DNA of 64,000 bases, taken from positions 9,597 to 73,596 of the forward strand of contig CAZLSH010000002.1 in the NCBI GenBank assembly GCA_964562095.1, read 5' to 3'. The translations under genes were made by a program, and so were the position numbers. Of this stretch, positions 20,491 through 55,560 are shown piece by piece. A model generated the notes under the pieces. The model was not told the DNA's origin. It did no database searches and worked only from the letters and a program-made list of their open reading frames with translations. The DNA is from an uncultured Clostridia bacterium. Lineage in GTDB: Bacteria > Acidobacteriota > Aminicenantia > UBA2199. How positions within the stretch are numbered: position 1 is the first letter of the stretch; each line of letters starts with the position of its first letter.

Positions 20491-20522
20491 GGGCCGCTGC
20501 CGCAAGGGGCGGCCCTTTTTAT
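20491..20522 (+). terminator. Rho-independent terminator (GGGCCGC-loop-GCGGCCC-TTTTTA)
   Basis: A 7-bp GC stem with an 11-nt loop followed by a T-run. Confidence 0.6.
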
Positions 20523-20634
20523 TTGATTCGTTGCGCCAAGTGGCGAGTGCTGAGCCCGCTGGGCGGGCAGGGCAACCGGCCAGGGCAAGAAGGCGCAAGT
20601 CGAAGAAGCGGCAACCCCGAGGCCCCTCCTCCCC

Positions 20635-26989: not shown

Positions 26990-27240
26990 GCCCGATCACC
27001 GGTGCCCGGCAACGGCCGGTGCGAAGCGGGGCGGAAACTCTTCAGTCGGTCTTGTCATCGTCGCTTCTTCCTCGCATGACGTCTTCGCGGCCCGCGGCGG
27101 CCGCGCTCCGCTCGTGAGCGGTCAATATGAATAATCTCTTTGAAATCGTAGGTATTGTCATTCTAAACCGTTTGCCGCAAAATTTCAAGCGCGCGCCGGA
27201 GACCGGGGACGGGGCACGGAAAACGGGGACGATACTCGCG

Positions 27241-27292
27241 CAAGGCAAACGGCAAAGGGAAAAAGGCAAAAGTGAGGAAAGAGGCCCTGCAA
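27241..27292. repeat. GGCAAA-rich purine-arm repeat (partial copy of the intergenic hairpin-element family)
   Basis: CAAGGCAAACGGCAAAGGGAAAAAGGCAAAAGTGAGGAAAGAGG resembles the arms at 34727 and 45350. Confidence 0.35.
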
Positions 27293-27384: not shown

Positions 27385-30147
27385 CTATGTTTTGAGGTTC
27401 TGGAACAACCTGAGCAGCTGGGTGCGGTTGCCGACGCCGAGCTTGCCCAGGATGTGGTGGACGTGGATCTTGACCGTGCTCAGCTCGATGTAGAGTTTTT
27501 CGCCGATCTCCTTGTTGCTCAGCCCTTTCAGCAGCAGCAGCACGATCTCCTTCTCGCGGGGGGAGATGGCGCATTTGTCCAGCAGCTGGTCCATGGCCTC
27601 GCGGGAGCGGATCCTGGACGCCCGGCGGCGGAGGCGGGTGCGGTTCAGTTCGAGAACCAGCAGGGCGACGGCCAGCGCCAGCAGCGACAGGAACCACCAC
27701 GACTTCCACCATGGTCCGCGCACGCGGACGACCAGCGTGGTCTCCCGCTCGTTCCACAGCCCGTCGCTGTTGGAGCCTTTGACCCTGAACGTGTAGGTCC
27801 CGGCCGGCAGGCGCGAGAAGGACGCGAGCCTGCGCTTGGCGTCGGTTTGGATCCAGTCGTCGGTCAGCCCCTCCAGTCTGTAGGCGTAGCGGTTCTTCAT
27901 CGGGGCGGAGTAATCCAGGGCGGCGAACTCCAGGGAGAACAGGTAGTCCCGGGGGCGGATGACGATTTCGTCCGTCTCCCAGATGGGCCGGGCCAGCCGG
28001 GCCTCGCGGTTCAGGATCCTGAACGAGGTGATGTGCACCGGCGGCGCGCAGGGGCTGTCGGTTATCTCCTCCGGGAAAAAGGCGTTGAAGCCGTTGACGC
28101 CGCCGAAAAACATTTCGCCGCGCGGGCTCAGGTAGCGGGCGCCGAAGTTGAACTCGTTGCCCTGCAGGCCGTCGTGGACGTCGAAATTCCTGAAAGCCCC
28201 GGCGCGCGGGTCGAAGCGTGACAGCCCCTCGAAGGTGCTGAGCCAGAGGCGGCCCGTGCGGTCCTCCAGGATGCCGTAGATCTCGTTGCACGGCAGCCCG
28301 TCGCGCTTGGTGAAGTGCGAGAACGTCCGCCGGGCGGCGTCCAGTCGGTTCAGCCCGCCGCCCCAGGTCGCGATCCACAGATTCCCCTCGCGGTCCTCGT
28401 GCAGGTCGAAGATGTAGTTGCTGCTCAGGCCGGCCGGGTCGGACGCGTCGTGCAGGCTGCGGGCGAACGTGCCGGTTTCCGGCAGGAAGCGGTTCAGCCC
28501 GCCGCCGTAGGTGCCGATCCACAGGGCGCCGGAGCGGTCCTGCAGGATGGCGCGCACCTCGTTGCTGCCCAGGCTGCGGGAGTCGTCGCCGTCATGCTGG
28601 AAGCGGCTGAACGTGTTGTTTTCGCGGCTCAGGCGGTTCAGCCCGCCGGTCAGCGTGCCGACCCACAAGTTGCCGGCGCGGTCCTCGGCCAGAACGCGGA
28701 TCTTGTCGTCGCTCAGGCTGTGCGGGTCCTGCGGGTCGTGGCGCAGGGCGGTGAAGGCGTTGCGGCGGCGGTCGAAGCGATTCAGGCCTCCGCCGTCGGT
28801 GCCGATCCAGAACTCGCCGCGGCTGTCGACCAGCAGGTTGCGGACGAACCGGTCGCTCGGCCCCGCCCCGCCTTCCACGACGGAGGGATAACGGGAGAAG
28901 GAGCGGCGTTCTGGATCGAGCCGCTCCAGGCCGCCCATGGTGCCGATCCACAGGCTGCGGTCGGGGTCCTCGTGGAAGCAAAAAACCGCGGCGTTGCCCA
29001 GCCTGTCGGCGCGGCCGGGCAGGGGGTAGTGGTGGTCAAAGCGCATCTGATTGGCGCTGACCTTGTCGACGCCGGTCCCGAAATTGCCGATCCACAGGAT
29101 GCCGGAACGGTCCTCGCAGATCGACAGAACCTGGTCGTAGCCCAGGCTGTAAGGGTCCTGGGGATCGTGGCGGAAAACGGAAAACTCGCCGCTCCTGGGG
29201 TCGCCGCAGAGAAGCCCCTCCTGGGTGGCGATCCACAGCCGGCCGGAGCGGTCCTCGCTGATGTCGTTGACCTGGAGCAGCGGGGGAATGTTCCGCTTGC
29301 CGGCCAGGCGCTCGCAGCCGCCCGTGCGCCGGTCCAGGCGGTCGAGGCCGGCCTGGGTGCCGATCCACAGGGCGCTGCCACGGTCCTCCAGGATGGCCAG
29401 GATGCGGTCGTGGCTGAGGGTGGCCGAATCGTCGGACCGGTGAGAGTGGCGCTCGAAGGTCGTGCCGCCGCGGCGGAGCCGGTTCAATCCCTCATCGGTG
29501 CCGATCCAGAGAGTCCCCTCGCGGTCCAGGCACAGGGCGTTGACCTGGTCGTGGCTCAGGCTGGAGCCGTCGCCTGGGCGATGCCGGAATATGGTGAAAC
29601 TTCCCGTGGCCCGGTCCAGGCGGTTGAGGCCGTTGTTGGTCCCGACCCAGAGAACGCCGTCCCGGTCCTCGACCAGGGCCTGGACGACGCTGCCGCTGAG
29701 CCCGCCGGCCGGCACGGGCGTCTTCCAGTAGGAGTGGAACGCGTCGGCGGCCGGGTCGAAGCGACTCAGGCCGCCGTTGTGGGTGCCGATCCACAACGTG
29801 CCATCTTTGCTCTCCATGAGTTTCACGACGTGGTTCTGGTTCAGGCTGGAGCCGTCGCCCGGCACGTGGCGGTACTCGCTGAAGGTGTAGCCGTCATGGC
29901 GGTAGAGGCCGTTTTCGGTGGCGAACCACATGAAGCCAAGGTGGTCCTGGAGGATGTCGAACACGACGCTGGGCGTGAGCCCCGAGGTCGCCGGGACGTG
30001 CTCGAAGCGCAGCCTGCCGCCCTCGGCCGGCAGGCGGAGGCAGAGGACCGGCAGCATAAAGGTGAGCGCCGCCAGGGCGCTCGTGGCGAGCCTGGCCGGC
30101 CTGGAAGCTTTTGCACGGCACGGGGAAAAGGATTTCCTGCAATTCAT
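27385..30147 (-). CDS. Membrane sensor-regulator: signal peptide, periplasmic beta-propeller (two-component-regulator propeller repeats), Y_Y_Y domain, TM helix, C-terminal LuxR/GerE HTH
   Basis: Repeated GLxxFD/LWIGT propeller blades are present. The LuxR HTH is LSPREKEIVLLLLKGLSNKEIGEKLYIELSTVKIHVHHILGKLGV. There is a TM segment (WWFLSLLALAVALLVLEL) and no kinase or receiver domain. The start is probably MNCRKS at 30147; the ORF-track start is 30261. Confidence 0.75.
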   Translation of the reverse strand: MNCRKSFSPCRAKASRPARLATSALAALTFMLPVLCLRLPAEGGRLRFEHVPATSGLTPSVVFDILQDHLGFMWFATENGLYRHDGYTFSEYRHVPGDGSSLNQNHVVKLMESKDGTLWIGTHNGGLSRFDPAADAFHSYWKTPVPAGGLSGSVVQALVEDRDGVLWVGTNNGLNRLDRATGSFTIFRHRPGDGSSLSHDQVNALCLDREGTLWIGTDEGLNRLRRGGTTFERHSHRSDDSATLSHDRILAILEDRGSALWIGTQAGLDRLDRRTGGCERLAGKRNIPPLLQVNDISEDRSGRLWIATQEGLLCGDPRSGEFSVFRHDPQDPYSLGYDQVLSICEDRSGILWIGNFGTGVDKVSANQMRFDHHYPLPGRADRLGNAAVFCFHEDPDRSLWIGTMGGLERLDPERRSFSRYPSVVEGGAGPSDRFVRNLLVDSRGEFWIGTDGGGLNRFDRRRNAFTALRHDPQDPHSLSDDKIRVLAEDRAGNLWVGTLTGGLNRLSRENNTFSRFQHDGDDSRSLGSNEVRAILQDRSGALWIGTYGGGLNRFLPETGTFARSLHDASDPAGLSSNYIFDLHEDREGNLWIATWGGGLNRLDAARRTFSHFTKRDGLPCNEIYGILEDRTGRLWLSTFEGLSRFDPRAGAFRNFDVHDGLQGNEFNFGARYLSPRGEMFFGGVNGFNAFFPEEITDSPCAPPVHITSFRILNREARLARPIWETDEIVIRPRDYLFSLEFAALDYSAPMKNRYAYRLEGLTDDWIQTDAKRRLASFSRLPAGTYTFRVKGSNSDGLWNERETTLVVRVRGPWWKSWWFLSLLALAVALLVLELNRTRLRRRASRIRSREAMDQLLDKCAISPREKEIVLLLLKGLSNKEIGEKLYIELSTVKIHVHHILGKLGVGNRTQLLRLFQNLKT
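27421..27940. repeat. ~520-nt block near-identical to 30456-30975 (3-prime ends of the two sensor paralogs)
   Basis: A constant offset of 3035 nt. Roughly 430 nt are perfectly identical and the ends have scattered mismatches. The encoded C-terminal ~200 aa are identical except for 1-2 residues. Confidence 0.85.
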
Positions 30148-30296
30148 GGCGTTTCCGGCAATCCGGGGGACATCGAGGAGGAGATCGCCTGTCCGCCGGG
30201 GCTGAAGACAATAAGACGTTTCCTCTAGGGGAATGGTTTCCATTCCGCCTCCGAAAAACAACTTTTAATGAAAACATTATAGGATCATTAATAATT

Positions 30297-30419: not shown

Positions 30420-33134
30420 TCAGGTCTTCAAATTCTGAAATAGCCTGAGCAACTGGGTGCGGTTGGCCACCCCGAGCTTGCCCAGGATGTGGTGGACGTG
30501 GATCTTGACCGTGCTCAGCTCGATATAAAGCTTTTCGCCGATCTCCTTGTTGCTCAGCCCTTTCAGCAGCAGCAGCACGATCTCCTTCTCGCGGGGGGAG
30601 ATGGCGCATTTGTCCAGCAGCTGGTCCATGGCCTCGCGGGAGCGGATCCTGGACGCCCGGCGGCGGAGGCGGGTGCGGTTCAGTTCGAGAACCAGCAGGG
30701 CGACGGCCAGCGCCAGCAGCGACAGGAACCACCACGACTTCCACCATGGTCCGCGCACGCGGACGACCAGCGTGGTCTCCCGCTCGTTCCACAGCCCGTC
30801 GCTGTTGGAGCCTTTGACCCTGAACGTGTAGGTCCCGGCCGGCAGGCGCGAGAAGGACGCGAGCCTGCGCTTGGCGTCGGTTTGGATCCAGTCGTCGGTC
30901 AGCCCCTCCAGTCTGTAGGCGTAGCGGTTCTTCATCGGGGCGGAGTAATCCAGGGCGGCGAACTCCAGGGAAAACAGGGAATCCCGGGGATGGAGGACGA
31001 TTTCGCCGGTTTCCCAGATGGGCTTGTCCAGCCTGACTTCCTTGTTCAGCACCCTGAAAGACGTGATCCGCACCGGGGGGACGAACGTGTTGTCCAGGAT
31101 TTCGTGCGGGAAAAAAGAGTTGAAACCGTTGCTGCCGCCGACGAACATCCTGCCGCTCCGGCCCTGGCAACAGGCTTTGGAAATGAAGGCCCGGCCTTGC
31201 AGGCCGTCGTCCTCGTCGTAGCTGCGGAAACGCTTCGTGAGCGGCGAGAAACGCGACAGCCCGTCGTTGGTCGTGATCCACAGGTCGCCCACGCTGTCTT
31301 CGAGGATCCCCAGCACCATGTTGCTGGCCAGGCCGTCGGCCTTGGTGAAGTGGGTGAACTTCCCGGTTCCCGTGTCCAGCCTGTTCAGGCCGCCGCCCAG
31401 GGTGCCGATCCACAGGCAGCCTTGGCGGTCTTCATGCAGGCAGAAGATGAAGTCGTCATTCAGGCTGGCGGCATCGGCAGCGTCGTGCCGGTAGCGGATG
31501 AACGTGCCGGTCTCGGGCACGAAGCGGTTCAGTCCGCCGCCGTAGGTGCCGATCCACAGCGTTCCGGAGCGGTCCTCCAGGAGGGCGCGCACGATATCGT
31601 CGCCCAGGCTGGTGGGATCGTTCTCGGTGTAGCGGTAGTGGCGGAACACGCCGCTGCCGCGGTCCAGGCGGTCGAGGCCGCCGCCGTACGTCCCGATCCA
31701 GATGGTGCCGGCCGTGCCCTGGCAGATGGACAGGACGCGGTTGCTGCTGATGCTGCCGGGCTGCCGCAGGTCGTGGCGCTGGACGGTCACCCGGCCGGTG
31801 CGTGGGTCGAACAGCTGAAGCCCGCCGCCGTCGGTTCCCAGCCAAAACCTCCCGTCCCGGTCCCAAAGCTGGCAGCGCACGTTGACTTCTCCCAGTGTCC
31901 CGGGTGGGCCGGAGCCGTAGCCGAAATGGCTGATGGCGCCGGTCTGTTGGTCGAGTTTGTCCAGGCCGCGATGGGTTCCGATCCAGAGCGCTCCATCCGG
32001 CGCCTCCATGAGCGACATGATCAGGTTGCTGCCCAGGGTGTTCTCCCGGCCGGGGATCAAGCGGAAATGGGAGAAAGGTGTGTGGTAGGGATTGAAGCGG
32101 CAGATTCCGTTTTCGCCCGAGCCGACCCACAGGATGCCGGAACGGTCCTCGTGGAGCGAGAAGACCTGGGTGAACGGCAGGCTTCTGGTATCCAGCGGGT
32201 CGTGGCGAAACACTTCCGCGCTTCGGGACGTGTCGCCCAGGCAAACCAACCCCATCGATGTGGCCAGCCAGAGCCTGCCGTTGCGGTCCTCGTGGATGGC
32301 ATGCACCCGGGGCGGCTGCACGGCATGGCCGTCCAACCCCGGCAGAGGGGTGGGAGCGAATCGCCGGGACTGGTGGTCGAAGCGGTACAGCCCGTTGTCG
32401 GTGCCGATCCACAGGGTTTGCCGGCTGTCATGGTGCAGGCAATACACATTGTCGTCGCCCAGGCTGGACGGGTCGGCGGGGTCGCGGCGGAAATGGACGG
32501 AGTGGCCCGTCCTGCGGTCCAGGCGGATGATCCCGCCGCCGAAGGTGCCGATCCACAAAGCGCCTTCGTGGTCCTCGCAGATGGCATGGACATGATCGCT
32601 TTGGCCTGGCCGGTCCTGGGCCAGCGGTTGCGGCGTAAAGCGCCCGGACGCCCGGTCGAGACGGGCCAGGCCCCTGTCCGAGCCGACCCAGAGCGTGCCG
32701 TCGCGGTCCTCGCAGATGGCGCTGACGATATCGTGGCTCAGGCTGTCGCTGCGGCCGGGAATGTGCCGGAAGTTGCGAAATTCCCCCGAATGGGGATCAT
32801 AGCTGTTCAGCCCGCCGTTGAGCGTGCCGATCCAGAGGCTTCCCTCGCGATCCTCGAATAGCTGCAGCACGGAATTGTGGCTCAAGCTGGACGAATCACC
32901 CGGAACGTGCTGGAACACGGTGAATTCATAGCCGTCGAACCTGTTCAGGCCGCACTCCGTCCCGAACCACATGAACCCGCTGCGGTCCTGCAGGATCGAA
33001 TAGACCGTATGGTGCGAAAGCCCTTCGGTCCTGCCGGCGTGAAAAAAGTTTAAATCCATCCCGGCCGGCTCCAGGCGCAGGGAGAGAGCCAGGATGGCCA
33101 GGCAGGCGAAGCAAACGGCGGTCTTGCTGTTCAT
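30420..33134 (-). CDS. Membrane sensor-regulator paralog 2: signal peptide, beta-propeller, Y_Y_Y, TM, LuxR HTH
   Basis: Same architecture as 27385-30147, with a diverged propeller region and a near-identical C-terminal third. The start MNSKTAVCFACLAILALS at 33134 is preceded by a GGAGGG RBS. Confidence 0.75.
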   Translation of the reverse strand: MNSKTAVCFACLAILALSLRLEPAGMDLNFFHAGRTEGLSHHTVYSILQDRSGFMWFGTECGLNRFDGYEFTVFQHVPGDSSSLSHNSVLQLFEDREGSLWIGTLNGGLNSYDPHSGEFRNFRHIPGRSDSLSHDIVSAICEDRDGTLWVGSDRGLARLDRASGRFTPQPLAQDRPGQSDHVHAICEDHEGALWIGTFGGGIIRLDRRTGHSVHFRRDPADPSSLGDDNVYCLHHDSRQTLWIGTDNGLYRFDHQSRRFAPTPLPGLDGHAVQPPRVHAIHEDRNGRLWLATSMGLVCLGDTSRSAEVFRHDPLDTRSLPFTQVFSLHEDRSGILWVGSGENGICRFNPYHTPFSHFRLIPGRENTLGSNLIMSLMEAPDGALWIGTHRGLDKLDQQTGAISHFGYGSGPPGTLGEVNVRCQLWDRDGRFWLGTDGGGLQLFDPRTGRVTVQRHDLRQPGSISSNRVLSICQGTAGTIWIGTYGGGLDRLDRGSGVFRHYRYTENDPTSLGDDIVRALLEDRSGTLWIGTYGGGLNRFVPETGTFIRYRHDAADAASLNDDFIFCLHEDRQGCLWIGTLGGGLNRLDTGTGKFTHFTKADGLASNMVLGILEDSVGDLWITTNDGLSRFSPLTKRFRSYDEDDGLQGRAFISKACCQGRSGRMFVGGSNGFNSFFPHEILDNTFVPPVRITSFRVLNKEVRLDKPIWETGEIVLHPRDSLFSLEFAALDYSAPMKNRYAYRLEGLTDDWIQTDAKRRLASFSRLPAGTYTFRVKGSNSDGLWNERETTLVVRVRGPWWKSWWFLSLLALAVALLVLELNRTRLRRRASRIRSREAMDQLLDKCAISPREKEIVLLLLKGLSNKEIGEKLYIELSTVKIHVHHILGKLGVANRTQLLRLFQNLKT
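30456..30975. repeat. Partner copy of the near-identical block at 27421-27940
   Basis: See 27421-27940. Confidence 0.85.
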
Positions 33135-33306
33135 GTCGCCCTCCAACGATGCAGACGACGAATATAGGGAATCGGCAGGTGGTGCCTTTCCGGTGCGGGG
33201 AAGACAATTATTAGACGCGGGAAAGTGGAGAAATGTTTCATGTTTCGGAGTTTCTTACCCATATTGGCGTCATGTTTTCGGAATGATACTCCGGCAGATG
33301 AAAATA

Positions 33307-34707
<1,401 letters not shown>

Positions 34708-34726
34708 CCTGCAGAGCCAAGCCTCT

Positions 34727-34885
34727 CACAAGGCAAAAGGCAAAAGTAAAAAGGCAAAAGTGAAGAGAGCATTCCCAGAACTCCATATGGATTTGCCTCC
34801 ATTTCTATCCGGGCAGGGAAAGGCGAAATGAGAGTGCATCTTCCCAACTTTTGCCTTTTGCCTTTTGCCCTTTGCCTTTCTTTCC
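34727..34885. repeat. Intergenic long imperfect hairpin element: GGCAAAAG-rich arm, ~75-nt loop, CTTTTGCC-rich arm
   Basis: Left arm CAAGGCAAAAGGCAAAAGTAAAAAGGCAAAAGTGAAGAGAGC. The right arm CTTTTGCCTTTTGCCTTTTGCCCTTTGCCTTTC is its approximate reverse complement. Located directly after the eno stop. Confidence 0.5.
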
Positions 34886-34978
34886 CGGCTTTGTGCCTGG
34901 TTCACCGCAGTCAGGTTGGTCATGTCCGTTACTAGCGAGCACTTCCCCGTTAGCCGAAATCTATGGAAGATCCTCGCC

Positions 34979-36127: not shown

Positions 36128-36248
36128 TGGCGAGTGGTAGTGTTCGTGATAGTGTTAGTGAAGATATTCAAGTCATTTCCATTGAATTTCATGCCATTCA
36201 TGATATATTCTCGCCGGGGAACAGATTTTTATTGATTGGAGTGAAACG

Positions 36249-41095: not shown

Positions 41096-41440
41096 GTGAA
41101 GCCCTGGTATCTCTACCTGGTGCGCTGCGGCGACGGCACGCTGTACACCGGCATCTCCAACGATGTGGATCGCCGCCTGGCCGCTCATGCTGCCGGCAGG
41201 GGAGCGCGCTACCTGCGCGGCCGCGGCCCCCTGACCCTGGCCCGCAAGGTCCGGGTCGGCAGCCATGGCGATGCCCTTACGGCGGAACGCAGGGTCAAGC
41301 GCTTGGGGCGGGATAGAAAAGAAAAGCTAATCCAGGGCAAGATCAGGTTGAAAGATTTGATTGAGGAAGACGTCAGACGCCAGACGTTAGACGTTAGCAA
41401 GAAAAAAAAATTCAAGAACAAAAAGGCAGGAACTGAATAA
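41096..41440 (+). CDS. GIY-YIG nuclease superfamily protein (UPF0213/YhbQ-like)
   Basis: The motif WYLYLVRCGDGTLYTGISNDVDRRLAAH is a GIY-YIG core; the start is GTG. Confidence 0.7.
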   Translation: MKPWYLYLVRCGDGTLYTGISNDVDRRLAAHAAGRGARYLRGRGPLTLARKVRVGSHGDALTAERRVKRLGRDRKEKLIQGKIRLKDLIEEDVRRQTLDVSKKKKFKNKKAGTE

Positions 41441-41551
41441 TTCGTATCGGCGAATATTTGTTCGCTGGTTCTTTAAGCGCCTGGCTAACATCTAACATCT
41501 AACGTCTAACGTCTTTCGCTTGCTGACGTCTAACATCTAACGTCTAATGCC
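41381..41551. repeat. Heptamer tandem-repeat element: ACGTTAG x2, then CTAACAT/CTAACGT x4 and x3 (inverted orientation)
   Basis: CAGACGTTAGACGTTAGC ... CTAACATCTAACATCTAACGTCTAACGTC ... GACGTCTAACATCTAACGTCTAATGCC. It lies between the convergent GIY-YIG and rubrerythrin-like genes and overlaps the GIY-YIG 3-prime end. Confidence 0.6.
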
Positions 41552-44935: not shown

Positions 44936-45149
44936 GATGCTCCATCCTGGGGAATGAAATGCCATGGTAGCACAACTGGAAAAATATTCAATGGCCGGCC
45001 GGGGAGGCCCGCTGCAGGAATTCCTCCCCGGACGGCTGCATCGCCACTTTTTCGGGAATCCTCCGAAACCGGTTTTCTGATCGGTTGGCGGTAGACGGTG
45101 GCTGCCATCCAATGAAATCGGTTTGCGGTGGAAGGTCAAAGAAGAAAGT

Positions 45150-45430
45150 GTTAGTGATCGTGTTAGTGTTAGCAGGAGAGCAGTGACTTCGGTTGCAATC
45201 ATTGTAATCGGTTGACGGGTGACGGTTTACGGTTTTCGGGAAGAGAAGTTCCCGCCATCTCTTGTTCTTTCTCATCACGCATCACGCATAACGCATAACG
45301 TAATCCGTGTCACGCGTTACGAAGTTCGTTCCTATTTCAATGCCAGTTCTTCACTTTTGCCTTTTGCCTTTTTACTTTTGCCTTTGTCTCACCCTTCGCC
45401 TTATGCCCTGCGCCTTGCGCCGGGCTCGCT
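45150..45430. repeat. Repeat-rich intergenic region: GTGTTAGTG-type heptamers, CGGTTGACGGGTGACGGTTTACGG, CATCACGCATCACGCATAACGCATAACG, then a CTTTTGCC-rich arm
   Basis: Several distinct short tandem repeats lie within ~280 nt, between the AmpG-like stop and the PilZ start. They share motifs with the elements at 36135, 41381 and 34727. Confidence 0.5.
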
Positions 45431-46914
45431 TATTTCTTGGGCACCCAAATCAGCAGCACCATTCCCGGGATCGAGATCAGGAAGCTGACCAGGAACATGC
45501 CGCCGTACCCGAGCCAGGAGGCAATGAAGCCGCTGCTGACGCCGGCGACGATGCCGCCCAGGCTCATCAGCCCCGAGCCGATGGCGAAATGCGCCGCCTT
45601 GAACTCCATCTTGCAGATGCGCATCAGGAAGGTGGTCAGCACCGCCGTGCCCAGGCCGCTGGCGAACTGGTCGAAGCCGTGCACGCCGGCGGCGAGAGCC
45701 AGGTTGCCTGCGCCGATGAACAGCGGCTGCGCGGCGCCGGTGTTGGCGGCCAGGTAGGGTGCCAGGCCGCCGGCCAGCAGCATGTAGACGACATTGGTCA
45801 GGTTCTGCGCCAGCAGGAAGGGCCAGATCACCCGCTGGAGGCCGTGGCGCGAGATCATCCAGCCGCCGACCAGCGCGCCGGCGATCGAAGCGGGCAGGCC
45901 GATGCCGCCCGAGATCCAGCCGTAGTGCTCCTTGATGCCCAGGTCGACGACGAACGCCGACGCCATGGAGCTGACCATGAATTCGCCGCTGCGCGCCAGG
46001 ACGATGAAGGCCAGGACCAGGCCGATCTTCTCCTGGTCCATGAAAGTGAGAAAGGCGCGGCCGTAGAAGGAATTCGGGTCCCGGGTCAGGAGGGATGCGA
46101 GCTTTGTGCGCAGAGCGGCCAGGAGAGCCAGCCCCAGCAGCAGCCCCAGGCCGACGGCGCGGGCGAAATTCAGCTCCCTGAGGATGGGCGATGCCTGCCG
46201 CCATTCCTGCCACAGGGCCGAGTTGAAAAAAATGAGGAACCCGGCGACCAGCGCAACTCCCAGGCCGATGTTCGCCAGGACACGCGGCCGGGCGAACAGG
46301 CCGAGCATTTTCACGGCCGGTTGGCGCTCCGTCTCGCATTCGGGGAGGAAGAAAAAATGGTAGGCGGCCAGCAGCGCCAGCAGCAGGCCGGCGAGCAGGA
46401 AAGCGAGCATCCAGGAGAAGGCGGCGCCGATGGTCACGATCACGCCGCTGGCGGTGAGCATGGCCACGCGGTAGGCCATGATGCGGTAGCCCAGAAAGCG
46501 GGTCTGCTCTTCCTGGTTGAGCGCTGCCAGGTAATAGCCGTCTATGGCGATGTCGTGGGTGGCGGCGACGAAGGCCCCGGCGAAGAACAGGATGGCGATC
46601 AGGCGCGGGGCGGCGGGCAGGGGTACGAGGAACGCCGCGGCGCCGATCAGGACGGCCAGCGATGCCTGCATGGCCAGCAGCCAGCTTTTCTTGGTGGCGA
46701 ACTCGTCGACGAGCGGCCCCCAGAAGAACTTGAGGATCCAGGGCAGGCCGAAGAAGGTGGTCAGGCCGACCGCCTCCAGGCTGACGCCGCGGTCGCGAAA
46801 GAAGAAGGCGGAGACGGAGCGGATGATGGAGAAGGGGAACCCTTCCGCGAAGTAGGTGCTGAAGCACCAGACTTGCGGTCTTTTGGCGATGGATGTCGGT
46901 CGGTCGTTGGCCAT
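45430..46914 (-). CDS. AmpG-like MFS permease
   Basis: The start MANDRPTSIAKRPQVWCFSTYFAEGFPFSIIR is typical of AmpG/muropeptide permease N-termini, with a 12-14 TM profile. The upstream 42 aa of the listed ORF are rejected. Confidence 0.65.
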   Translation of the reverse strand: MANDRPTSIAKRPQVWCFSTYFAEGFPFSIIRSVSAFFFRDRGVSLEAVGLTTFFGLPWILKFFWGPLVDEFATKKSWLLAMQASLAVLIGAAAFLVPLPAAPRLIAILFFAGAFVAATHDIAIDGYYLAALNQEEQTRFLGYRIMAYRVAMLTASGVIVTIGAAFSWMLAFLLAGLLLALLAAYHFFFLPECETERQPAVKMLGLFARPRVLANIGLGVALVAGFLIFFNSALWQEWRQASPILRELNFARAVGLGLLLGLALLAALRTKLASLLTRDPNSFYGRAFLTFMDQEKIGLVLAFIVLARSGEFMVSSMASAFVVDLGIKEHYGWISGGIGLPASIAGALVGGWMISRHGLQRVIWPFLLAQNLTNVVYMLLAGGLAPYLAANTGAAQPLFIGAGNLALAAGVHGFDQFASGLGTAVLTTFLMRICKMEFKAAHFAIGSGLMSLGGIVAGVSSGFIASWLGYGGMFLVSFLISIPGMVLLIWVPKK

Positions 46915-46984
46915 AGTCCCAGATGGTATTACATGAAAACGGAGATGTAAATAGAGACGACCGCAGTCCGAATTCCATTTGAAC

Positions 46985-47100
46985 TCAGGGAAGAAGCGGG
47001 AAGAGTGAGGGAAAGGCAGAGGGAAGACAAAGTGGGACAAGCGGTCATCAAGGGCTTATCCCGCTCTCTCTTCCCTCGTTCTTCCCTCTGTCTTCCCTTG
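46985..47100. repeat. GGGAAGA-type long imperfect hairpin element (copy 1), overlapping the tilS 3-prime end
   Basis: Purine arm GGGAAGAGTGAGGGAAAGGCAGAGGGAAGACAAAGTGGGACAAG, a loop, then pyrimidine arm CTCTCTCTTCCCTCGTTCTTCCCTCTGTCTTCCCTTGAATCTTCCC. Both arms contain CAGAGGGAAGA(C/A)A in opposite orientation. Confidence 0.55.
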
Positions 47101-48469
47101 AATCTTCCCTTAGTTCGCTGGATTTCAGGCCGATGCGGATGAAGGGCCCCTTTGCGCCGTCCCGGACGGCGAAGGGGGCGGCGACGGGCGATCGGCAAAC
47201 CCAGATGATCTCGCCATCGCCGTTTTCCAGCAGCGGGCAGAGGCGGCGCAGCGGCGCCGGCACGCCCGAAGCGCGGATCATCTCAAAGACGCTCTGTTCG
47301 TAGGGGGAATGGATCTTGCGGTACTTGTCGCCGCGGCGGGCCGGGCGCAGACGCAACGGGAAGCGCAGCTTCTTTTCCGCCACCAGGATCTCGAAGTTGT
47401 CCCCGGGCAGGCGGAAGCGGGCGGTCTTTTTCACGATGAGGCTGCGGCCGATCTCCGGGATGGGCCATTTGCCGGCGCCGCCGATCTCCAGGCGGTAATC
47501 GCCGATGCGCACCTTCTCCGGGAAGATCCAGCCCTTGGCGAACTTCAGGTTCAGCCCGGGCAGGGAGAGGCCGCGACCCGTCTCCACGCTCTTCATGAAA
47601 TCGGCGATATGCTCGTAGCCGACGCCCAACAGGTCGCCCTTGACCCGGCGCAGGTATTCGCGGGCCAGGTGCCGCGCCAGGGCCGGGTGCAGGCCGGTGA
47701 AGGCGGCTGCCGGCAGAATGGTCCTCATGAGCAGTTGTTGGTCCAGGATGGCGCTGGCCGCGCCCTGAAAAAAGTCGAACTCGTCCTGAATCAGCAGCAC
47801 CGTGCGCAGTATCCGCTCATCGGCTTCGGGCTCGATGGCCCGGGCCGCGGGCATGAGCAGGTGGCGGATGCGGTTGCGCAGGAAGTCGTGCTCCAGGTTG
47901 GTCGGGTCCCGGTAATACTCGATGCCGTTGCGTTCCAGGAAGGCCAGGATCTCCGCCTCGGAGAAGATGAGCAGCGGCCGGACGATCCGCTTCTCCTTGC
48001 TGGCGTAGATCGCCGATAGTCCTTGCAAGCCGCTGCCGCGGAAGAGCTTGATAAAGAAGGTTTCGGCCAGGTCGGAGCGGCTGTGGGCAGTGGCGATGCG
48101 CGGGCCGGGGTAGCGGCCGGCCAGGCAATGGAAGAAGTCGTAGCGCGAGAGCGAAGCGGCGTGCTCGAGGTTCAGGCGCTTCTCCTCGCGGAAGCGCTCC
48201 ACGTCGCGGCTGCCGGTCTCCAGTTCGATGCCGCGGGCGGCGCAGAAGTCGCGCACCCATTTCTCCTCTTCCCGGGCGTCGTCGCGCAGGCGGTGGTTGA
48301 AATAGGCGGCGACCATCCGGAAGCGGAGGGCCTTTTGCAGTTCCTGGAAGAGCAAGGCCAGGGTGACCGAGTCCTTTCCCCCGGAGAAACCGAGGATGAC
48401 CGTGTTGCCGGGGCGGACGAGTCCGTGGTCCTGGATGTTTTTTTTGAATTCCGGGAACAGGATATTCAT
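47048..48469 (-). CDS. tilS: tRNA(Ile)-lysidine synthetase
   Basis: The PP-loop ILGFSGGKDSVTL and a TilS-length, two-domain protein. The last ~17 codons run into the hairpin element, so the true C-terminus may be shorter. Confidence 0.8.
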   Translation of the reverse strand: MNILFPEFKKNIQDHGLVRPGNTVILGFSGGKDSVTLALLFQELQKALRFRMVAAYFNHRLRDDAREEEKWVRDFCAARGIELETGSRDVERFREEKRLNLEHAASLSRYDFFHCLAGRYPGPRIATAHSRSDLAETFFIKLFRGSGLQGLSAIYASKEKRIVRPLLIFSEAEILAFLERNGIEYYRDPTNLEHDFLRNRIRHLLMPAARAIEPEADERILRTVLLIQDEFDFFQGAASAILDQQLLMRTILPAAAFTGLHPALARHLAREYLRRVKGDLLGVGYEHIADFMKSVETGRGLSLPGLNLKFAKGWIFPEKVRIGDYRLEIGGAGKWPIPEIGRSLIVKKTARFRLPGDNFEILVAEKKLRFPLRLRPARRGDKYRKIHSPYEQSVFEMIRASGVPAPLRRLCPLLENGDGEIIWVCRSPVAAPFAVRDGAKGPFIRIGLKSSELREDSREDRGKNEGRESGISP

Positions 48470-48519
48470 CGCCCCCTCGGGTTTCTTCCTCTCCGCGGAG
48501 AAGAAAGAGTAGCGGCGGA

Positions 48520-48592
48520 GGGAATTGAACCCCCGACATAACGGATATGAGCCGTCTGCTCTACCGACTGAGCTACGCCGCCATCAGGAGCC
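48520..48592 (-). tRNA. tRNA with anticodon CAT (elongator Met or Ile2-lysidine type); no encoded CCA
   Basis: The reverse complement folds as a cloverleaf: acceptor GGCGGCG/CGCCGCT, D-arm GCTC-AGTCGGT-AGAGC, anticodon stem GACGG/CCGTT with loop CTCATAT, T-arm GGGGG-TTCAATT-CCCTC. It has a G1-U72 pair and lacks initiator-type features. Confidence 0.85.
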
Positions 48593-48640
48593 AATTATAC
48601 CCGAAACAGGGCTGCCATGCAACAGAGCAGGTCTTCAGGG

Positions 48641-48770
48641 AAGGCAGGGAGAAGAAAGAGGGAAAGGCAGAGGGAAGACAGAGTGGGAAAGAAGTCGATT
48701 ACGGCTATTCTCACTCTCTCTTCCCTCATTCTTCCCTTTGTCTTCCCTCTGACTTCCCTTTATTTCGTCA
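48641..48770. repeat. GGGAAGA-type long imperfect hairpin element (copy 2)
   Basis: GAAGGCAGGGAGAAGAAAGAGGGAAAGGCAGAGGGAAGACAGAGTGGGAAAGAAG, a loop, then CTCACTCTCTCTTCCCTCATTCTTCCCTTTGTCTTCCCTCTGACTTCCC. The core is >80% similar to copy 1. Confidence 0.55.
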
Positions 48771-48779
48771 ACGTCCTTG

Positions 48780-50117
48780 CTAGAACTTCCTGCTGGCTCC
48801 GCCGCCGCCGGAGCGGCCGCCGCCGAATGAGCCCAGGGACGAGCGCGAGCCGGACGAGGATGAACGCGGAGAGGAGAGGCGCGGCGTCGAGTTCTCGCGG
48901 GTCTTGGAGTAGTTGCACTTGGGGTTGAGGCAGGTCTCGGTGGTCCGCGTGCGGCCGCCGTGTTCCTTTGTCGCCGCCACCAGCGTCATAGTGCTGGAGG
49001 TGAGGGCGCGGCGCTGGCACTGCGGGCACTTGCAGGCCTTGCCCAGCTTGATGGCCAGCTTTTCGTCGGCGCCGCACTTCGGGCAACGCCAGAATTCGTA
49101 GTCCATTCCGCCCGCCTTCTCCTCGGCCGCCTCCTCGGTGCTCAGCATCACGTCGTCCTCGCTGTCAGCGGCCATGTCCATGGCGGCGCCGCACTTCGTG
49201 CAGGAGAGATGGTAGGAATCCACCTTCCTTTTGAGGATCCGGCCGGTGAAGAGGCGGCCGAAGGTGGCCAGCCCGGGCGCGGCCAGCATGGATACAAAGG
49301 GAGTGAGGAAGTCCCTGCCGAAGCCGAGGACCAGGAAAAAGGAGATCACACCGCCGATCCAGGCCAGGATGACGCTGGCGGGAGTGCCGCCGGCGATCCG
49401 AGCGCGGGCGGCCCTGCCGCGGGCCCTGTTGAAGCGCGTCACGGTGAGGGCGACGGCCAGCAGGGCGAAGGCCAGGATGCCGCCGCCGAAGTACAATGAG
49501 GCCCGCAGCGGGTCCCATTTCCCCTTTTTTTTCGGCTGGGGGAAGTTCTTGGGCTTGGGAGGGGGCGCCTCGGCCGGCCAGGAAGCCGGGTCGGCGATTG
49601 TAAGGGAAACGTCGCCGGCCGCCTGGACGGCGACATCGCGGGCGGCCAGGAACAGGCCGCGACCGAAGCGGCCGGCCTGGAGATGGGTGATGGCGTTGCG
49701 CTCGAGCAGGCGCGAGGCCAGGGCGTCGGGGATGTCCGCCTCCAGGCCGTAGCCCACCTCCAGGCGCACGAAACGGTCGTCGCGCGAGCAGAGGAGAAGG
49801 AGGCCATTGTCCCTGCCCCTGGCGCCGATGGCGAAACGGCGGAACACCTTTTCGGCGAATTCCTCGATCCCCAGCCCGCCCAGGTCGCCGACCGTGACCA
49901 CGGCCATCTCGACGGTCGCCTTGGACTGCAGCTCGCGGCAGATGCCGTCGATCATTCCGACATACGCGGGCGACAGCACGCCGCCGCCATCGGAGACATA
50001 GGCCCCTGAGGCCTTTCTCGGGTTCAAGACCTCCTCGGGTCTTTCCCCCTGCAGCGGCAGGAGGGCGGCGCCCAGCGCCAGCAGCAGCCAGAGGCAGCGA
50101 AGCGGTCTTCCGTTCAT
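48780..50117 (-). CDS. TPM-domain (YgcG/TLP18.3-like) membrane protein with C-terminal zinc-ribbon motifs and a Gly/Ser-rich tail
   Basis: A signal peptide (MNGRPLRCLWLLLALGAALLP), a TPM-like region, two TM segments, CxxC pairs (CTKCG, CPKCG, CPQC) and a GGGRSGGGGAS tail. The start at 50117 is preceded by GGAAGGAG. Confidence 0.6.
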   Translation of the reverse strand: MNGRPLRCLWLLLALGAALLPLQGERPEEVLNPRKASGAYVSDGGGVLSPAYVGMIDGICRELQSKATVEMAVVTVGDLGGLGIEEFAEKVFRRFAIGARGRDNGLLLLCSRDDRFVRLEVGYGLEADIPDALASRLLERNAITHLQAGRFGRGLFLAARDVAVQAAGDVSLTIADPASWPAEAPPPKPKNFPQPKKKGKWDPLRASLYFGGGILAFALLAVALTVTRFNRARGRAARARIAGGTPASVILAWIGGVISFFLVLGFGRDFLTPFVSMLAAPGLATFGRLFTGRILKRKVDSYHLSCTKCGAAMDMAADSEDDVMLSTEEAAEEKAGGMDYEFWRCPKCGADEKLAIKLGKACKCPQCQRRALTSSTMTLVAATKEHGGRTRTTETCLNPKCNYSKTRENSTPRLSSPRSSSSGSRSSLGSFGGGRSGGGGASRKF

Positions 50118-50250
50118 GGGGGCTCCTTCCAGGGGGGAGATTGTACGTGAAAACCGGATGAATTTCAAAAAGAGCGCAGCCAGAAAAATAAGCGGTTGAC
50201 AAAAACGACTAAATGTATTATATAAATGGTACAATGAAATCCAAAGGGGA

Positions 50251-50646
50251 ATGAACATGAACCTGACGATCGATGCCAAGTCGCCCTTGCCGGTCTATCA
50301 GCAGGTTATTCAGGCAATCAAGCTGGAGATACTTTCCGGCGGCCTGCGCAACGGCGACCCGCTGCCCTCCATCCGCGACCTGGCCAAGCTGCTCAAGCTG
50401 AATCCCAATACCGTAGCAAAGGCGTATTACGCTTTGGAAGCCGAAGGCTTCAGCGAGGGGCGCAGCGGCAGCGGCAGCCGCGTCAAGGTGCCGCCCGGCA
50501 GGCAGGATGCGCTGCGCAAGGCCATGCTGGAAAGCGAATTGAGGATCTTCCTGGAGAAAGCGGTATCGCTGGGTTTCTCTCTGGAAGACATCGGACAACT
50601 GATAGAGAGGATAAAAAATGAGCCAAGCCATCATCGAGGTCTGTGA
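50251..50646 (+). CDS. GntR-family (YtrA-subfamily) transcriptional regulator
   Basis: A GntR HTH (PSIRDLAKLLKLNPNTVAKAYYALEAEGF), a short 131-aa form, overlapping the downstream ABC ATPase. Confidence 0.8.
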   Translation: MNMNLTIDAKSPLPVYQQVIQAIKLEILSGGLRNGDPLPSIRDLAKLLKLNPNTVAKAYYALEAEGFSEGRSGSGSRVKVPPGRQDALRKAMLESELRIFLEKAVSLGFSLEDIGQLIERIKNEPSHHRGL

Positions 50647-55458: not shown

Positions 55459-55560
55459 ACCGATTGTTCGTGATTCGTAATTCGTGATGCGCAAAGGCAA
55501 CAGCCGAGCCATCGCGGTTTTCTTCCGAATGACGAATTCGCCTTGCGAATTACGACGCAC
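55455..55560. repeat. Short imperfect inverted/tandem repeats (TTCGTGATTCGTAATTCGTGATGCG ... GCGAATTACGACGCAC)
   Basis: The intergenic stretch after the S51 gene contains CGTGAT/CGTAAT units and a partial reverse-complement partner. Confidence 0.3.

What the first reader, a model, noticed from the sequence alone, without database searches (positions are those of the whole stretch)
46985..48770. Two copies of a GGGAAGA-type long hairpin element bracket tilS and a tRNA-CAT
Copies at 46985-47100 and 48641-48770 each consist of a purine-rich arm, a short loop and a matching pyrimidine-rich arm. They are more than 80% similar to each other in the core (GAGGGAAAGGCAGAGGGAAGACA). The first overlaps the last ~17 codons of tilS, so the annotated C-terminus may be an artefact of read-through into the element. 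A related GGCAAAAG-type family occurs at 27241, 34727-34885 and 45340-45400. These look like a genome-specific MITE/REP-like or structured-RNA family sitting at gene ends, and possibly act as bidirectional terminators.
Basis: seen in the sequence. Interest (0 to 1): 0.5.

Follow-up and report, generated by a model that had tools for sequence, protein, structure and literature searches.

The report
Aminicenantes palindromic intergenic repeat family
The two hairpins around tilS are real copies of a roughly 128-base palindromic repeat scattered through the non-coding DNA of Aminicenantes bacteria: most likely small parasitic or ex-parasitic DNA, not a dedicated terminator, and one copy has added 23 junk amino acids to TilS.

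Summary
E1 (46984-47113) and E2 (48634-48762) are long imperfect hairpins. Each arm holds 4-5 GGGAAGA boxes about 11 nt apart. RNA folding energy is -66 to -77 kcal/mol, z -6 to -9.

They belong to a family I found at 76 places, 38 of them full length, in at least 11 Aminicenantes/"Acidobacteria" MAGs. It is therefore class-wide, not genome-specific.

- **Shared descent:** copies share arbitrary asymmetries (box order, loop), so they descend from a common source by copying.
- **Placement:** elements show no orientation bias to genes. About 30% lie between divergent genes, lack a U-tract and have no target-site duplication.
- **Nesting:** elements sit in the apices of other repeat hairpins, and other repeat hairpins sit in theirs.
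- **Turnover:** they lose or gain whole units and occur inverted at orthologous sites.
- **This locus:** the tilS-to-MFS spacer is empty in one relative and holds an unrelated palindrome in nine others.
- **TilS tail:** E1 is ancestral to several species. Here the tilS stop was lost, giving a 473-aa protein against the usual 450 aa.

Best reading: a MITE/REPIN-like non-autonomous palindromic repeat with an unknown mobiliser. A terminator role is not supported as its purpose. I found no description of it. It is a new member of a known kind, of moderate interest.

The parts
46984..47113 (+). E1, a full copy of the GGGAAGA palindromic repeat in family 'forward' orientation on the + strand. Left purine arm about 46986-47043, apical loop about 47044-47054, right pyrimidine arm about 47055-47111.
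   Evidence: nhmmer gives 115 bits forward against 69 reverse. Hairpin -74.8 / -77.3 kcal/mol. An orthologous copy exists in L117, L119 and L129.
48634..48762 (+). E2, the second full copy, also forward on the + strand. Left arm about 48637-48692, loop about 48698-48701, right arm about 48703-48760.
   Evidence: nhmmer gives 122 bits forward against 74 reverse. Hairpin -73.6 / -65.7 kcal/mol. Also present in L001, L129 (contig starts inside it) and L133. Absent in L117, L119, L121 and L122.
47048..47116 (-). Element-encoded 23-codon tail of TilS (…SSELREDSREDRGKNEGRESGISP*). The TGA stop lies in the E1 apical loop.
   Evidence: TilS_C domain ends near residue 441-446. Orthologues are 450 aa. 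In L117 a TAA stop lies 4 nt before E1. L129 reads into E1 in another frame.
47117..48469 (-). Conserved tilS coding region (tRNA(Ile)-lysidine synthase).
   Evidence: Pfam ATP_bind_3 at 1.2e-44 and TilS_C. 307 homologues, several named TilS by their sources.
48509..48582 (-). tRNA with anticodon CAT, immediately upstream of tilS.
   Evidence: ARAGORN. Rfam tRNA 68.4 bits. Same synteny in L117 and L121-L124.
48594..48622 (-). Promoter-like TTGCAT-17 nt-TATAAT for the tRNA/tilS unit, 12 nt beyond the E2 end.
   Evidence: Read from the sequence and conserved in position in L117, L119 and L121-L123. Function is inferred.
46923..46951 (-). Promoter-like TTTACA-17 nt-TACCAT for the downstream MFS gene, about 30 nt beyond the E1 end.
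   Evidence: Consensus scan. Conserved in L117, L119 and L129. Function is inferred.
34723..34886 (.). Hairpin of the separate period-7 GGCAAAAG/CTTTTGC family (arms 34723-34768 and 34839-34886, loop about 70-85 nt). Solo arms lie at 27235-27280 and 45344-45392.
   Evidence: (I1, I2, I4, I7).

Best explanation
E1 and E2 are two diverged copies of a roughly 128-bp non-coding, imperfectly palindromic interspersed repeat common to Aminicenantes (Aminicenantia) genomes.

Anatomy:
- Each arm is an array of 4-5 units of about 11 nt (GGGAAGA plus a 4-6 nt spacer).
- The consensus is TCCAGGGAAGAGAGAGGGAAGACAGAGGGAAAGGCAGAGGGAAGACAAAGTGGGAAAGA-loop-TTTTCCCACTCTCTCTTCCCTCnTTCTTCCCTCTCTCTTCCCTCTGTCTTCCCTGAG.

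Shown:
- The copies descend from a common source by copying into unrelated intergenic spacers.
- They lie mainly between a stop codon and the next promoter, or between divergent genes.
- There is no recognisable target-site duplication.
- Elements sit at the apex of other palindromic repeats, and other palindromic repeats sit at theirs.
- Copies change by gain or loss of whole units, by decay of one arm, and by inversion in place.
- The two copies do not form a unit around tilS and the tRNA.
- E1 is ancestral to several species. After loss of the tilS stop it gave TilS a 23-aa tail.

Inferred:
- The element is, or was, a non-autonomous mobile element of the MITE/REPIN type.
- It is moved in trans by an unidentified enzyme, most plausibly one that acts on hairpin or single-stranded DNA.
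- When transcribed, in either orientation, it forms an interrupted hairpin of about 55 bp. This may incidentally block or stabilise RNA ends, and its TTGA(G/C) end can supply a -35 box. These are side effects, not its reason for existing.
For: Family membership:
- 76 places and 38 full copies (90-140 bits) in Aminicenantes-type MAGs.
- Forward always beats reverse by about 40-55 bits. The copies therefore share arbitrary asymmetries, which implies common descent rather than convergent hairpins.

Insertion polymorphism at this locus:
- tilS-to-MFS spacer: filled with E1 in the window, L117, L119 and L129; empty in L130; filled with an unrelated 125-nt palindrome in 9 relatives.
- TPM-to-tRNA spacer: with E2 in the window, L001, L129 and L133; without it in L117, L119, L121 and L122.

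Placement:
- Orientation relative to genes is 12 (+,+) against 7 (-,-).
- Divergent spacers hold 11 of 36 copies against a 15% baseline.
- No strand asymmetry in folding: -70.0 against -72.7 kcal/mol.
- No GC-skew association.

Turnover:
- Unit slippage at orthologous sites.
- Nesting and inversion at orthologous sites: L071 against L030, and L036 against L023.

Other:
- Within MAG clean593, all 12 copies have their nearest neighbour in the same genome.
- Assemblies break inside the elements: L001, L120, L129 and L133.
- No Rfam family reaches threshold.
Against: - No transposase or RAYT was found among 270 proteins predicted in the 8-kb flanks, and no autonomous relative was seen.
- No target-site duplication.
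- No identical or near-identical copies: the maximum within a genome is 91%, so recent movement is not shown. Short-read MAGs would hide identical copies.
- Copies persist at orthologous sites across species whose TilS is only 79-81% identical.
- E1 plus its spacer is 90% identical between the window and UBA2190, against 76-84% at four-fold sites of the flanking genes. That hints at some constraint.
Confidence: 0.7

Rival explanations
1. Host-selected RNA hairpin. The element exists because it terminates or insulates transcription, or protects mRNA 3' ends, between adjacent transcription units. Its spread reflects recruitment for that role.
For: - In this window both copies lie exactly between an upstream stop codon and the next unit's promoter.
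- In tandem contexts the upstream stop is often 1-13 nt from the element.
- The hairpin is very stable in both orientations.
- E1 is retained across species and is more conserved than four-fold sites.
- The same spacer holds some palindrome in most relatives.
Against: - No U-tract; the terminator scan finds nothing at either element.
- 11 of 36 copies lie between divergent genes, twice the baseline, and only 6 between convergent genes.
- L130 has no element between tilS and the MFS promoter.
- Arms decay asymmetrically, so the hairpin is not maintained.
- Almost no compensatory changes: 3 of 24 pairs, and differences between orthologous copies break pairs.
- The genome has canonical intrinsic terminators elsewhere, for example at 20491-20525.
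Confidence: 0.15
2. DNA-level protein-binding array. The phased GGGAAGA/TCTTCCC boxes are cooperative binding sites for a nucleoid-associated or regulatory protein, placed upstream of promoters.
For: - Boxes are far better conserved than spacers, and the right-arm TCTTCCCT boxes are nearly invariant.
- Box spacing of 11-13 nt is conserved.
- Elements are enriched in divergent, promoter-containing spacers.
- The right end abuts or supplies a -35 box in L089, L090, L100 and L104.
Against: - No candidate protein, and no recurrent neighbouring gene.
- Sister families with the same architecture have 6-7-nt periods that do not match helical phasing.
- Orientation is random and flips in place.
- An empty site is tolerated.
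Confidence: 0.08
3. Independently transcribed structured small RNA gene family.
For: A long, stable, conserved hairpin. Sub-threshold resemblance to generic hairpin-precursor models only.
Against: - No Rfam family at gathering score.
- No associated promoter or terminator on either strand.
- No orientation preference and no strand asymmetry.
- No covariation.
- Copies overlap coding ends.
Confidence: 0.04

Closest known systems
REPINs / REP sequences mobilised by RAYT tyrosine transposases (Bertels & Rainey 2011, PMC3116915; Di Nocera et al. 2013, PMC3733652)
   Same: - Non-coding, extragenic and multi-copy.
- Inverted halves plus a spacer form a hairpin of about 100 nt in ssDNA or mRNA.
- No target-site duplication.
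- Old components retained across species.
   Different: - Arms are 55-nt arrays of phased 11-nt units, not 20-40-bp REPs.
- No GTAG or CGTC tag anywhere in the consensus.
- REPs lie mainly between unidirectional and convergent ORFs (PMC3733652), whereas these are over-represented between divergent genes.
- No RAYT seen.
Bacterial MITEs such as Correia/NEMIS of Neisseria, and ERIC/IRU of enterobacteria (review: Delihas 2011, PMC3184786; details of Correia and ERIC from my own knowledge)
   Same: - 100-150 bp, with no ORF.
- Terminal inverted repeats that fold into a long stem-loop.
- Intergenic and sometimes overlapping gene ends.
- Ends can create promoters. Here CCCTTGAG/CCCTTGAC acts as a -35-like box.
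   Different: - No target-site duplication.
- No matching autonomous IS found.
- The whole element is one palindrome built from internal tandem units.
- The sequence is unrelated.
BOX elements of Streptococcus pneumoniae, and short tandemly repeated repetitive (STRR) heptamers of heterocystous cyanobacteria (my own knowledge; BOX is listed in PMC3184786)
   Same: - Modular repeats with a variable number of internal units.
- Intergenic.
- The companion period-7 arrays in this window and in related MAGs resemble STRR arrays. I found 67 arrays in 345 kb, 64 of them non-coding.
   Different: - Here the unit arrays come as inverted pairs forming hairpins and nest inside one another.
- Different phylum and unrelated sequences.
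Intrinsic (Rho-independent) terminators
   Same: A stable hairpin just downstream of stop codons at this locus.
   Different: - No U-tract.
- The stem of about 55 bp is interrupted and not G+C-rich.
- Found in divergent spacers.
- Dispensable in L130.

Membership tests
MITE (as defined in Delihas 2011, PMC3184786) | Small (under about 200-400 bp) and without a transposase gene | tested here: met
   About 128 bp. Only spurious short ORFs cross it.
MITE | Terminal inverted repeats; folds into a long stem-loop | tested here: met
   The whole element is an imperfect inverted repeat, -66 to -77 kcal/mol.
MITE | Flanked by target-site duplications (direct repeats) | tested here: not met
   In 36 aligned junctions the flanks show no direct repeat. 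Where they are related at all they are complementary (…GAAC|TCCAGGG…CCCTGAG|CTTC…), which extends the palindrome.
MITE | Many dispersed copies, with presence/absence differences between genomes | tested here: met
   76 places in at least 11 MAGs. Filled against empty or otherwise filled orthologous spacers.
MITE | A cognate autonomous IS with the same ends | tested here: inconclusive
   None among 270 proteins in the flanks of 46 loci. Whole genomes could not be searched.
REP / REPIN-RAYT | 20-40-bp palindromic REP unit with an unpaired GTAG or CGTC tag at one end (PMC3733652) | tested here: not met
   The consensus of 33 copies contains no GTAG, CTAC, CGTC or GACG.
REP / REPIN-RAYT | Two inverted halves plus a spacer forming a hairpin as the replicative unit (PMC3116915) | tested here: met
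   Architecture. Solo arms also occur and are more degenerate.
REP / REPIN-RAYT | A RAYT gene in the genome, flanked by the repeats | tested here: inconclusive
   Not seen in the sampled flanks. No genome-wide search was possible.
Intrinsic terminator | G+C-rich stem followed by a U-tract | tested here: not met
   The scan finds no terminator-like site at either element. About 10-15% of the right flanks are T-rich, by eye.
Intrinsic terminator | Placed downstream of genes and rare between divergent genes | tested here: not met
   11 of 36 lie between divergent genes against a 15% baseline.
Any Rfam RNA family | Match at the family's gathering score | tested here: not met
   Only the tRNA passes. 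In E-value mode only eukaryotic miRNA-precursor models appear, at 20-36 bits against gathering scores of 60-170.

The most novel reading that the evidence does not exclude
Aminicenantia genomes may carry a community of hairpin-forming modular repeats: the 11-mer GGGAAGA element, several heptamer-array hairpins and a roughly 125-nt T-shaped palindrome. In this reading they insert into one another's apical loops without target-site duplication and switch orientation at fixed sites. That would be the footprint of an unrecognised hairpin- or ssDNA-directed mobilisation or inversion system: a distant HUH/RAYT-like enzyme, an IS110-like enzyme, or something new. It would not be ordinary MITE biology plus recombination between arms.
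Probability: 0.2. Interest if true: 0.7.

Novelty: new member of a known kind. Interest (0 to 1): 0.4.

Why it matters
**Annotation.** Aminicenantes are uncultured and known only from MAGs. A class-wide repeat of about 128 bp does three things:
- It explains contig breaks; four assemblies end inside these elements.
- It corrupts gene ends, as in the 473-aa and 464-aa TilS variants.
- It would be mis-called as a small RNA or a terminator.

**Biology.** The family offers a tractable case of how palindromic repeats are born, nested, flipped and eroded in a deep-branching phylum. The tilS-to-MFS spacer shows empty, GGGAAGA-filled and T-palindrome-filled states among close relatives. If a dedicated hairpin-directed enzyme lies behind it, that enzyme would be of interest as a new DNA-rearranging activity.

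Tried and rejected
- **RNAalifold and pair counting on 33 copies.** The consensus is weak (-9 kcal/mol) because the repeated units make the register ambiguous. Only 3 of 24 pairs change on both sides. This gives no support for a selected RNA structure.
- **Strand asymmetry of folding.** Forward -70.0 against reverse -72.7 kcal/mol, with forward better in 13 of 38. This is too small to name a functional strand.
- **Orientation against gene direction and local GC skew.** No association.
- **First gene caller (GC-frame heuristic).** It misassigned contexts, for example at L090. I replaced it with a codon log-odds caller and re-checked with a frame-wise coding score.
- **Recurrent flanking gene or transposase.** All-against-all BLASTP of 270 flanking proteins found only orthologous or paralogous host genes, such as DUF5916 and an ABC ATPase.
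- **Target-site duplication.** None.
- **Viral contigs.** Four pattern hits, none a family member.
- **Composite transposon around the tRNA and tilS.** Rejected, because E1 occurs without E2 in UBA2190 and in a strain with 99%-identical TilS.
- **Integron attC, retron msd, CsrB-like GGA sponge, H-DNA mirror repeat.** Considered from memory and dropped. The sequence shows no core sites, no neighbouring RT or integrase, the GGA boxes are paired, and there is no mirror symmetry.
- **Literature.** No paper in the held library links Aminicenantes with such repeats. One search was wasted on the prefix 'STRR'. The Elhai 2008 paper on cyanobacterial small dispersed repeats was not retrievable.
Full report
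**What is in the window.**

All genes around the finding are on the minus strand. In order they are:
- a TPM-domain gene (48780-50279)
- E2 (48634-48762)
- a promoter-like TTGCAT-17-TATAAT (48594-48622)
- a tRNA with anticodon CAT (48509-48582)
- tilS (47048-48469)
- E1 (46984-47113)
- a promoter-like TTTACA-17-TACCAT (46923-46951)
- an MFS transporter gene (45430-46914)

Each element has a purine arm of 4-5 GGGAAGA-type boxes starting 11-13 nt apart, a short loop, and a pyrimidine arm of TCTTCCC boxes. GGGAAGA is twice as frequent in the window as in shuffles (23 against 11.3; none of 100 shuffles reached 23). Twelve of the 23 occurrences are in the two elements.

Both strands of both elements fold into a single interrupted hairpin. 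As RNA the energy is -65.7 to -77.3 kcal/mol, z -6.3 to -9.5. As DNA it is about -35 kcal/mol, z -5.8. No shuffle did as well.

**It is a family, and not a genome-specific one.**

I scanned one genome per species with three phased TCTTCCC boxes. The low-complexity hits from other phyla are simple tandem arrays. The hits from Candidatus Aminicenantes and 'Acidobacteria' MAGs show the whole element. These MAGs include clean593, UBA2199, UBA2190, UBA6072, two MFD MAGs, JTS-AC306, Zod_Metabat.920, Prado013, Prado015 and RA.bin124.

A profile built from 17 copies finds 76 places, 38 of them full length at 90-140 bits. The window's copies score 115 and 122 bits. TilS homologues named by their sources place the window in Aminicenantes.

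The consensus of 33 copies has 79% mean column identity. The boxes are much better conserved than the spacers, and the right-arm TCTTCCCT boxes are nearly invariant.

The element is not a perfect palindrome. The order of box and spacer variants and the loop are asymmetric. As a result every full copy scores 40-55 bits higher in one orientation. Such arbitrary shared asymmetry at dozens of unrelated loci means the copies descend from one source by copying. They did not arise from local slippage or convergent hairpin evolution.

**Where the copies sit.**

I used a codon log-odds gene caller and checked it with a frame-wise coding score of the 330 nt on each side. The 36 copies with two called neighbours lie as follows:

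| Context | Copies |
|---|---|
| Genes co-oriented with the element | 12 |
| Genes oriented against the element | 7 |
| Divergent genes | 11 |
| Convergent genes | 6 |

Gene junctions in the same loci are 68% tandem, 17% convergent and 15% divergent. Divergent spacers are therefore about twice over-represented (chi-square p = 0.03, not corrected for a few orthologous sets).

There is no orientation bias to transcription. There is no folding asymmetry between strands: -70.0 against -72.7 kcal/mol. There is no link to local GC skew.

There is no U-tract and no terminator-like call at either element. The junctions show no target-site duplication. Where flanks resemble each other they are complementary, which extends the palindrome outward.

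No Rfam family matches at threshold. In E-value mode only generic eukaryotic miRNA-hairpin models appear, far below their cut-offs.

**History at this locus.**

*E1.* It is present in the same orientation and at the same junctions in four relatives:
- the window
- a strain with 99%-identical TilS (L119)
- UBA2190 (L117, TilS 81% identical)
- a 79%-identical relative (L129)

Between the window and UBA2190, the spacer including E1 is 90% identical (186 of 206). Four-fold degenerate sites are 76% identical in tilS and 84% in the MFS gene. E1 is therefore old and not decaying faster than silent sites.

The differences between the two copies break pairs rather than compensate.

In 14 further relatives from metagenomes (TilS 71-78% identical) the same tilS-to-MFS spacer never holds the GGGAAGA element.
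- In one (L130) it is empty. The tilS stop lies 5 nt before the MFS promoter.
- In nine relatives (eight of these 14 plus L121, fetched earlier) it holds an unrelated roughly 125-nt palindrome.
- In the others it holds other sequence.

*E2.* It is present in the window, L001, L129 and L133. It is absent from UBA2190, from the 99%-identical strain, and from two relatives with the same TPM-tRNA synteny. In the 99%-identical strain a heptamer array and a transposase fragment abut the tRNA promoter instead.

The two copies therefore have separate histories and do not form a unit around tilS and the tRNA. Contigs L001 and L120 end inside E1. L129 and L133 start inside E2. This is what a dispersed repeat does to assemblies.

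**The TilS C-terminus.**

The ORF is 473 aa. The TilS_C domain ends near residue 441-446. Nearly all close orthologues are exactly 450 aa and cover 94-95% of the query.

The UBA2190 protein ends …RISLKI*, with TAA 4 nt before E1. The window's sequence has lost that stop and reads 23 codons through the right arm to a TGA in the loop (…SSELREDSREDRGKNEGRESGISP*).

A second lineage (464 aa) reads into the same element in a different frame (…QQTKGRFKGRQREE*). The tail is therefore real in the DNA but is accidental element-derived sequence.

**How copies change.**

At orthologous sites whole units are lost or gained:
- L011 lacks 22 nt of the right arm relative to L104.
- L114 lacks one 10-nt unit relative to L055.
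- The order of unit variants differs between L090 and L100.

One arm can decay by transitions while the other stays intact, as in L023.

Twice, the element lies inverted between the same conserved flanks in two genomes:
- L071 against L030
- L036 against L023

In L030 the apical loop also carries an extra nested hairpin of about 170 nt made of 6-nt repeats.

Conversely, many copies sit in the centre of an outer hairpin made of heptamer arrays such as …ACGGCGT…/…ACGCCGT… (L060, L096, L043, L077).

Heptamer arrays are abundant in this class: 67 in 345 kb, 64 of them non-coding. They are abundant in the window too, at 27242, 34730/34848, 41368/41485, 45209/45273, 45354 and 55467.

Within MAG clean593 all 12 copies are each other's nearest neighbours (76-91% identical). 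In other genomes copies do not cluster by genome. No identical copies were seen. Short-read MAGs would not assemble them in any case.

**Interpretation.**

The best-supported account is a non-autonomous palindromic repeat of the MITE/REPIN kind. It was copied into permissive intergenic spacers, tolerated, and then eroded, resized and flipped.

- *Shown:* family membership, common descent of copies, insertion polymorphism, lack of orientation or terminator-like placement, and the effect on TilS.
- *Inferred:* mobility by a trans-acting enzyme. The absence of target-site duplication and the habit of sitting in hairpin apices point to an enzyme that works on hairpin or single-stranded DNA. However, no transposase was found in 270 flanking proteins, and whole genomes could not be searched.

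Inversion is most simply explained by recombination between the inverted arms. I did not test this.

A host function as an RNA hairpin is not excluded for individual copies, and the local arrangement here would suit it. The family-wide placement, the empty site in L130 and the lack of covariation argue against it as the reason the family exists. A phased protein-binding array remains possible but has no positive support beyond box conservation and spacing.

**Comparison with known families.**

- *REPINs* (PMC3116915): it works like these. It fails the REP definition because there is no GTAG or CGTC tag, and its distribution is the opposite of the one reported for REPs (PMC3733652).
- *Classical MITE* (PMC3184786): it fails on target-site duplication.
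- *Intrinsic terminator:* it is not one.
- *Correia and ERIC:* it resembles these in size and fold.
- *BOX elements:* it resembles these in having a variable number of internal modules.
- *Cyanobacterial STRR arrays:* its heptamer companions resemble these.

The last three comparisons rest on my own knowledge.

I found no description of the family in the searchable literature.

Verdict: a real, previously undescribed member of a known kind of bacterial repeat, of moderate interest. A less likely but more interesting possibility is that the nesting and flipping reflect a dedicated hairpin-directed system.

Noticed in passing
L121 3902-4027; L132 2869-2994; L134 2165-2289; L138 2902-3027; L140 2900-3025 (one orientation). 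L135 2961-3084; L136 2889-3035 and 3043-3175; L141 2887-3008; L143 824-949 and 965-1087 (the other orientation).: A second, unrelated palindromic repeat of about 125 nt occupies the tilS-to-MFS spacer in nine relatives. It has an outer stem of about 25 bp (GGGGCTTTTTCCGACATCCCCTTCAGC…) enclosing two small hairpins, giving a T-shaped fold (-66 to -80 kcal/mol). It occurs in both orientations at the same spacer and in one or two copies. Copies are 117/126 identical as reverse complements. It recalls the flip/flop of parvovirus terminal repeats, but this is only a resemblance.
   Followed up: partly
L071 6309-6438 against L030 3905-4215; L036 2327-2456 against L023 5742-5851: The GGGAAGA element lies inverted between the same conserved flanks in two pairs of genomes. 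In L030 its apical loop also holds an extra nested repeat hairpin of about 170 nt. Recombination between the arms, or re-insertion, could explain this. Neither was tested.
   Followed up: partly
window 41368-41547; 45209-45300; 45354-45421; 55467-55550; 27190-27232; 36133-36160; 45147-45172: Many other intergenic tandem arrays of 6-7-nt units, often as inverted pairs forming hairpins. Examples are AGACGTT/AACGTCT at 41.4 kb, GTGACGG…CACGCAT at 45.2 kb and TTCGTGA at 55.5 kb. Across 345 kb of Aminicenantes loci, 64 of 67 heptamer arrays are non-coding.
   Followed up: partly
L130 2832-2900; L131 2826-2960: L130 is an empty tilS-to-MFS spacer, with the stop 5 nt before TTGCAT-17-TATAAT. L131 has an extra segment of about 70 nt at the same point, flanked by a 7-nt direct repeat CCCTGAC. 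The segment contains a remnant of the T-shaped element's end.
   Followed up: no
window 48509-48582 with 47048-48469; L117, L121-L124: A tRNA with anticodon CAT sits directly upstream of tilS behind its own conserved promoter. This synteny (TPM gene, tRNA, tilS, often MFS gene) holds across relatives down to 56% TilS identity. It may be tRNA-Ile2, the substrate of TilS, rather than tRNA-Met. Identity elements were not analysed.
   Followed up: no
L019 1449-1588; L022 1794-1931; L035 1423-1556; L092 2156-2267; L017 6226-6356; viral contig L126 about 2300-2470: Gemmatimonadota MAGs and one IMG/VR contig carry an analogous hairpin built from a different 11-nt unit: (ACGGGAAGACA)n, a loop, then (TGTCTTCCCGT)n. 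It scores only 28-40 bits against the Aminicenantes profile. The architecture is the same but the family is different.
   Followed up: no
L089 about 4600-4640; L090 about 6060-6100; L100; L104/L011; L026 and L061 right flanks: The element's right end CCCTTGAC/CCCTTGAG lies 17 nt upstream of TAGATT, TAGGAT or TAAGAT in three loci, so it could donate a -35 box. Elsewhere TATAAT sits 5-6 nt before the ATG (L026, L061), which suggests near-leaderless mRNAs in this group.
   Followed up: no
L119 1-150: In the strain whose TilS is 99% identical to the window's, the sequence upstream of the tRNA promoter is replaced. It holds a GTCACTT heptamer array and the 3' end of an integrase-core (rve-like) transposase gene, judged by eye from the translation. 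The contig starts there. This is a strain-level rearrangement at the E2 site.
   Followed up: no
window 27385-30261 and 30420-33146; 27389-27688 against 30424-30723: Two large tandem paralogous minus-strand genes made of repeats of about 141-144 nt (propeller-like). A 300-nt stretch is 95% identical between them.
   Followed up: no
L038 (labelled Chrysiogenia), L096 and L014/L025 (labelled Clostridia): These records carry full or partial GGGAAGA elements. L038's flanks are 73-81% identical to those of Aminicenantes UBA6072 (L059). The taxonomic labels or the binning of these MAGs are probably wrong.
   Followed up: no
L011, L028, L030, L061, L089, L090, L100, window: When two copies lie within a few kb of each other they have the same orientation in all 6 independent cases (p about 0.016). 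Tandem duplication of a gene plus its element explains L090/L100. The rest are unexplained.
   Followed up: no
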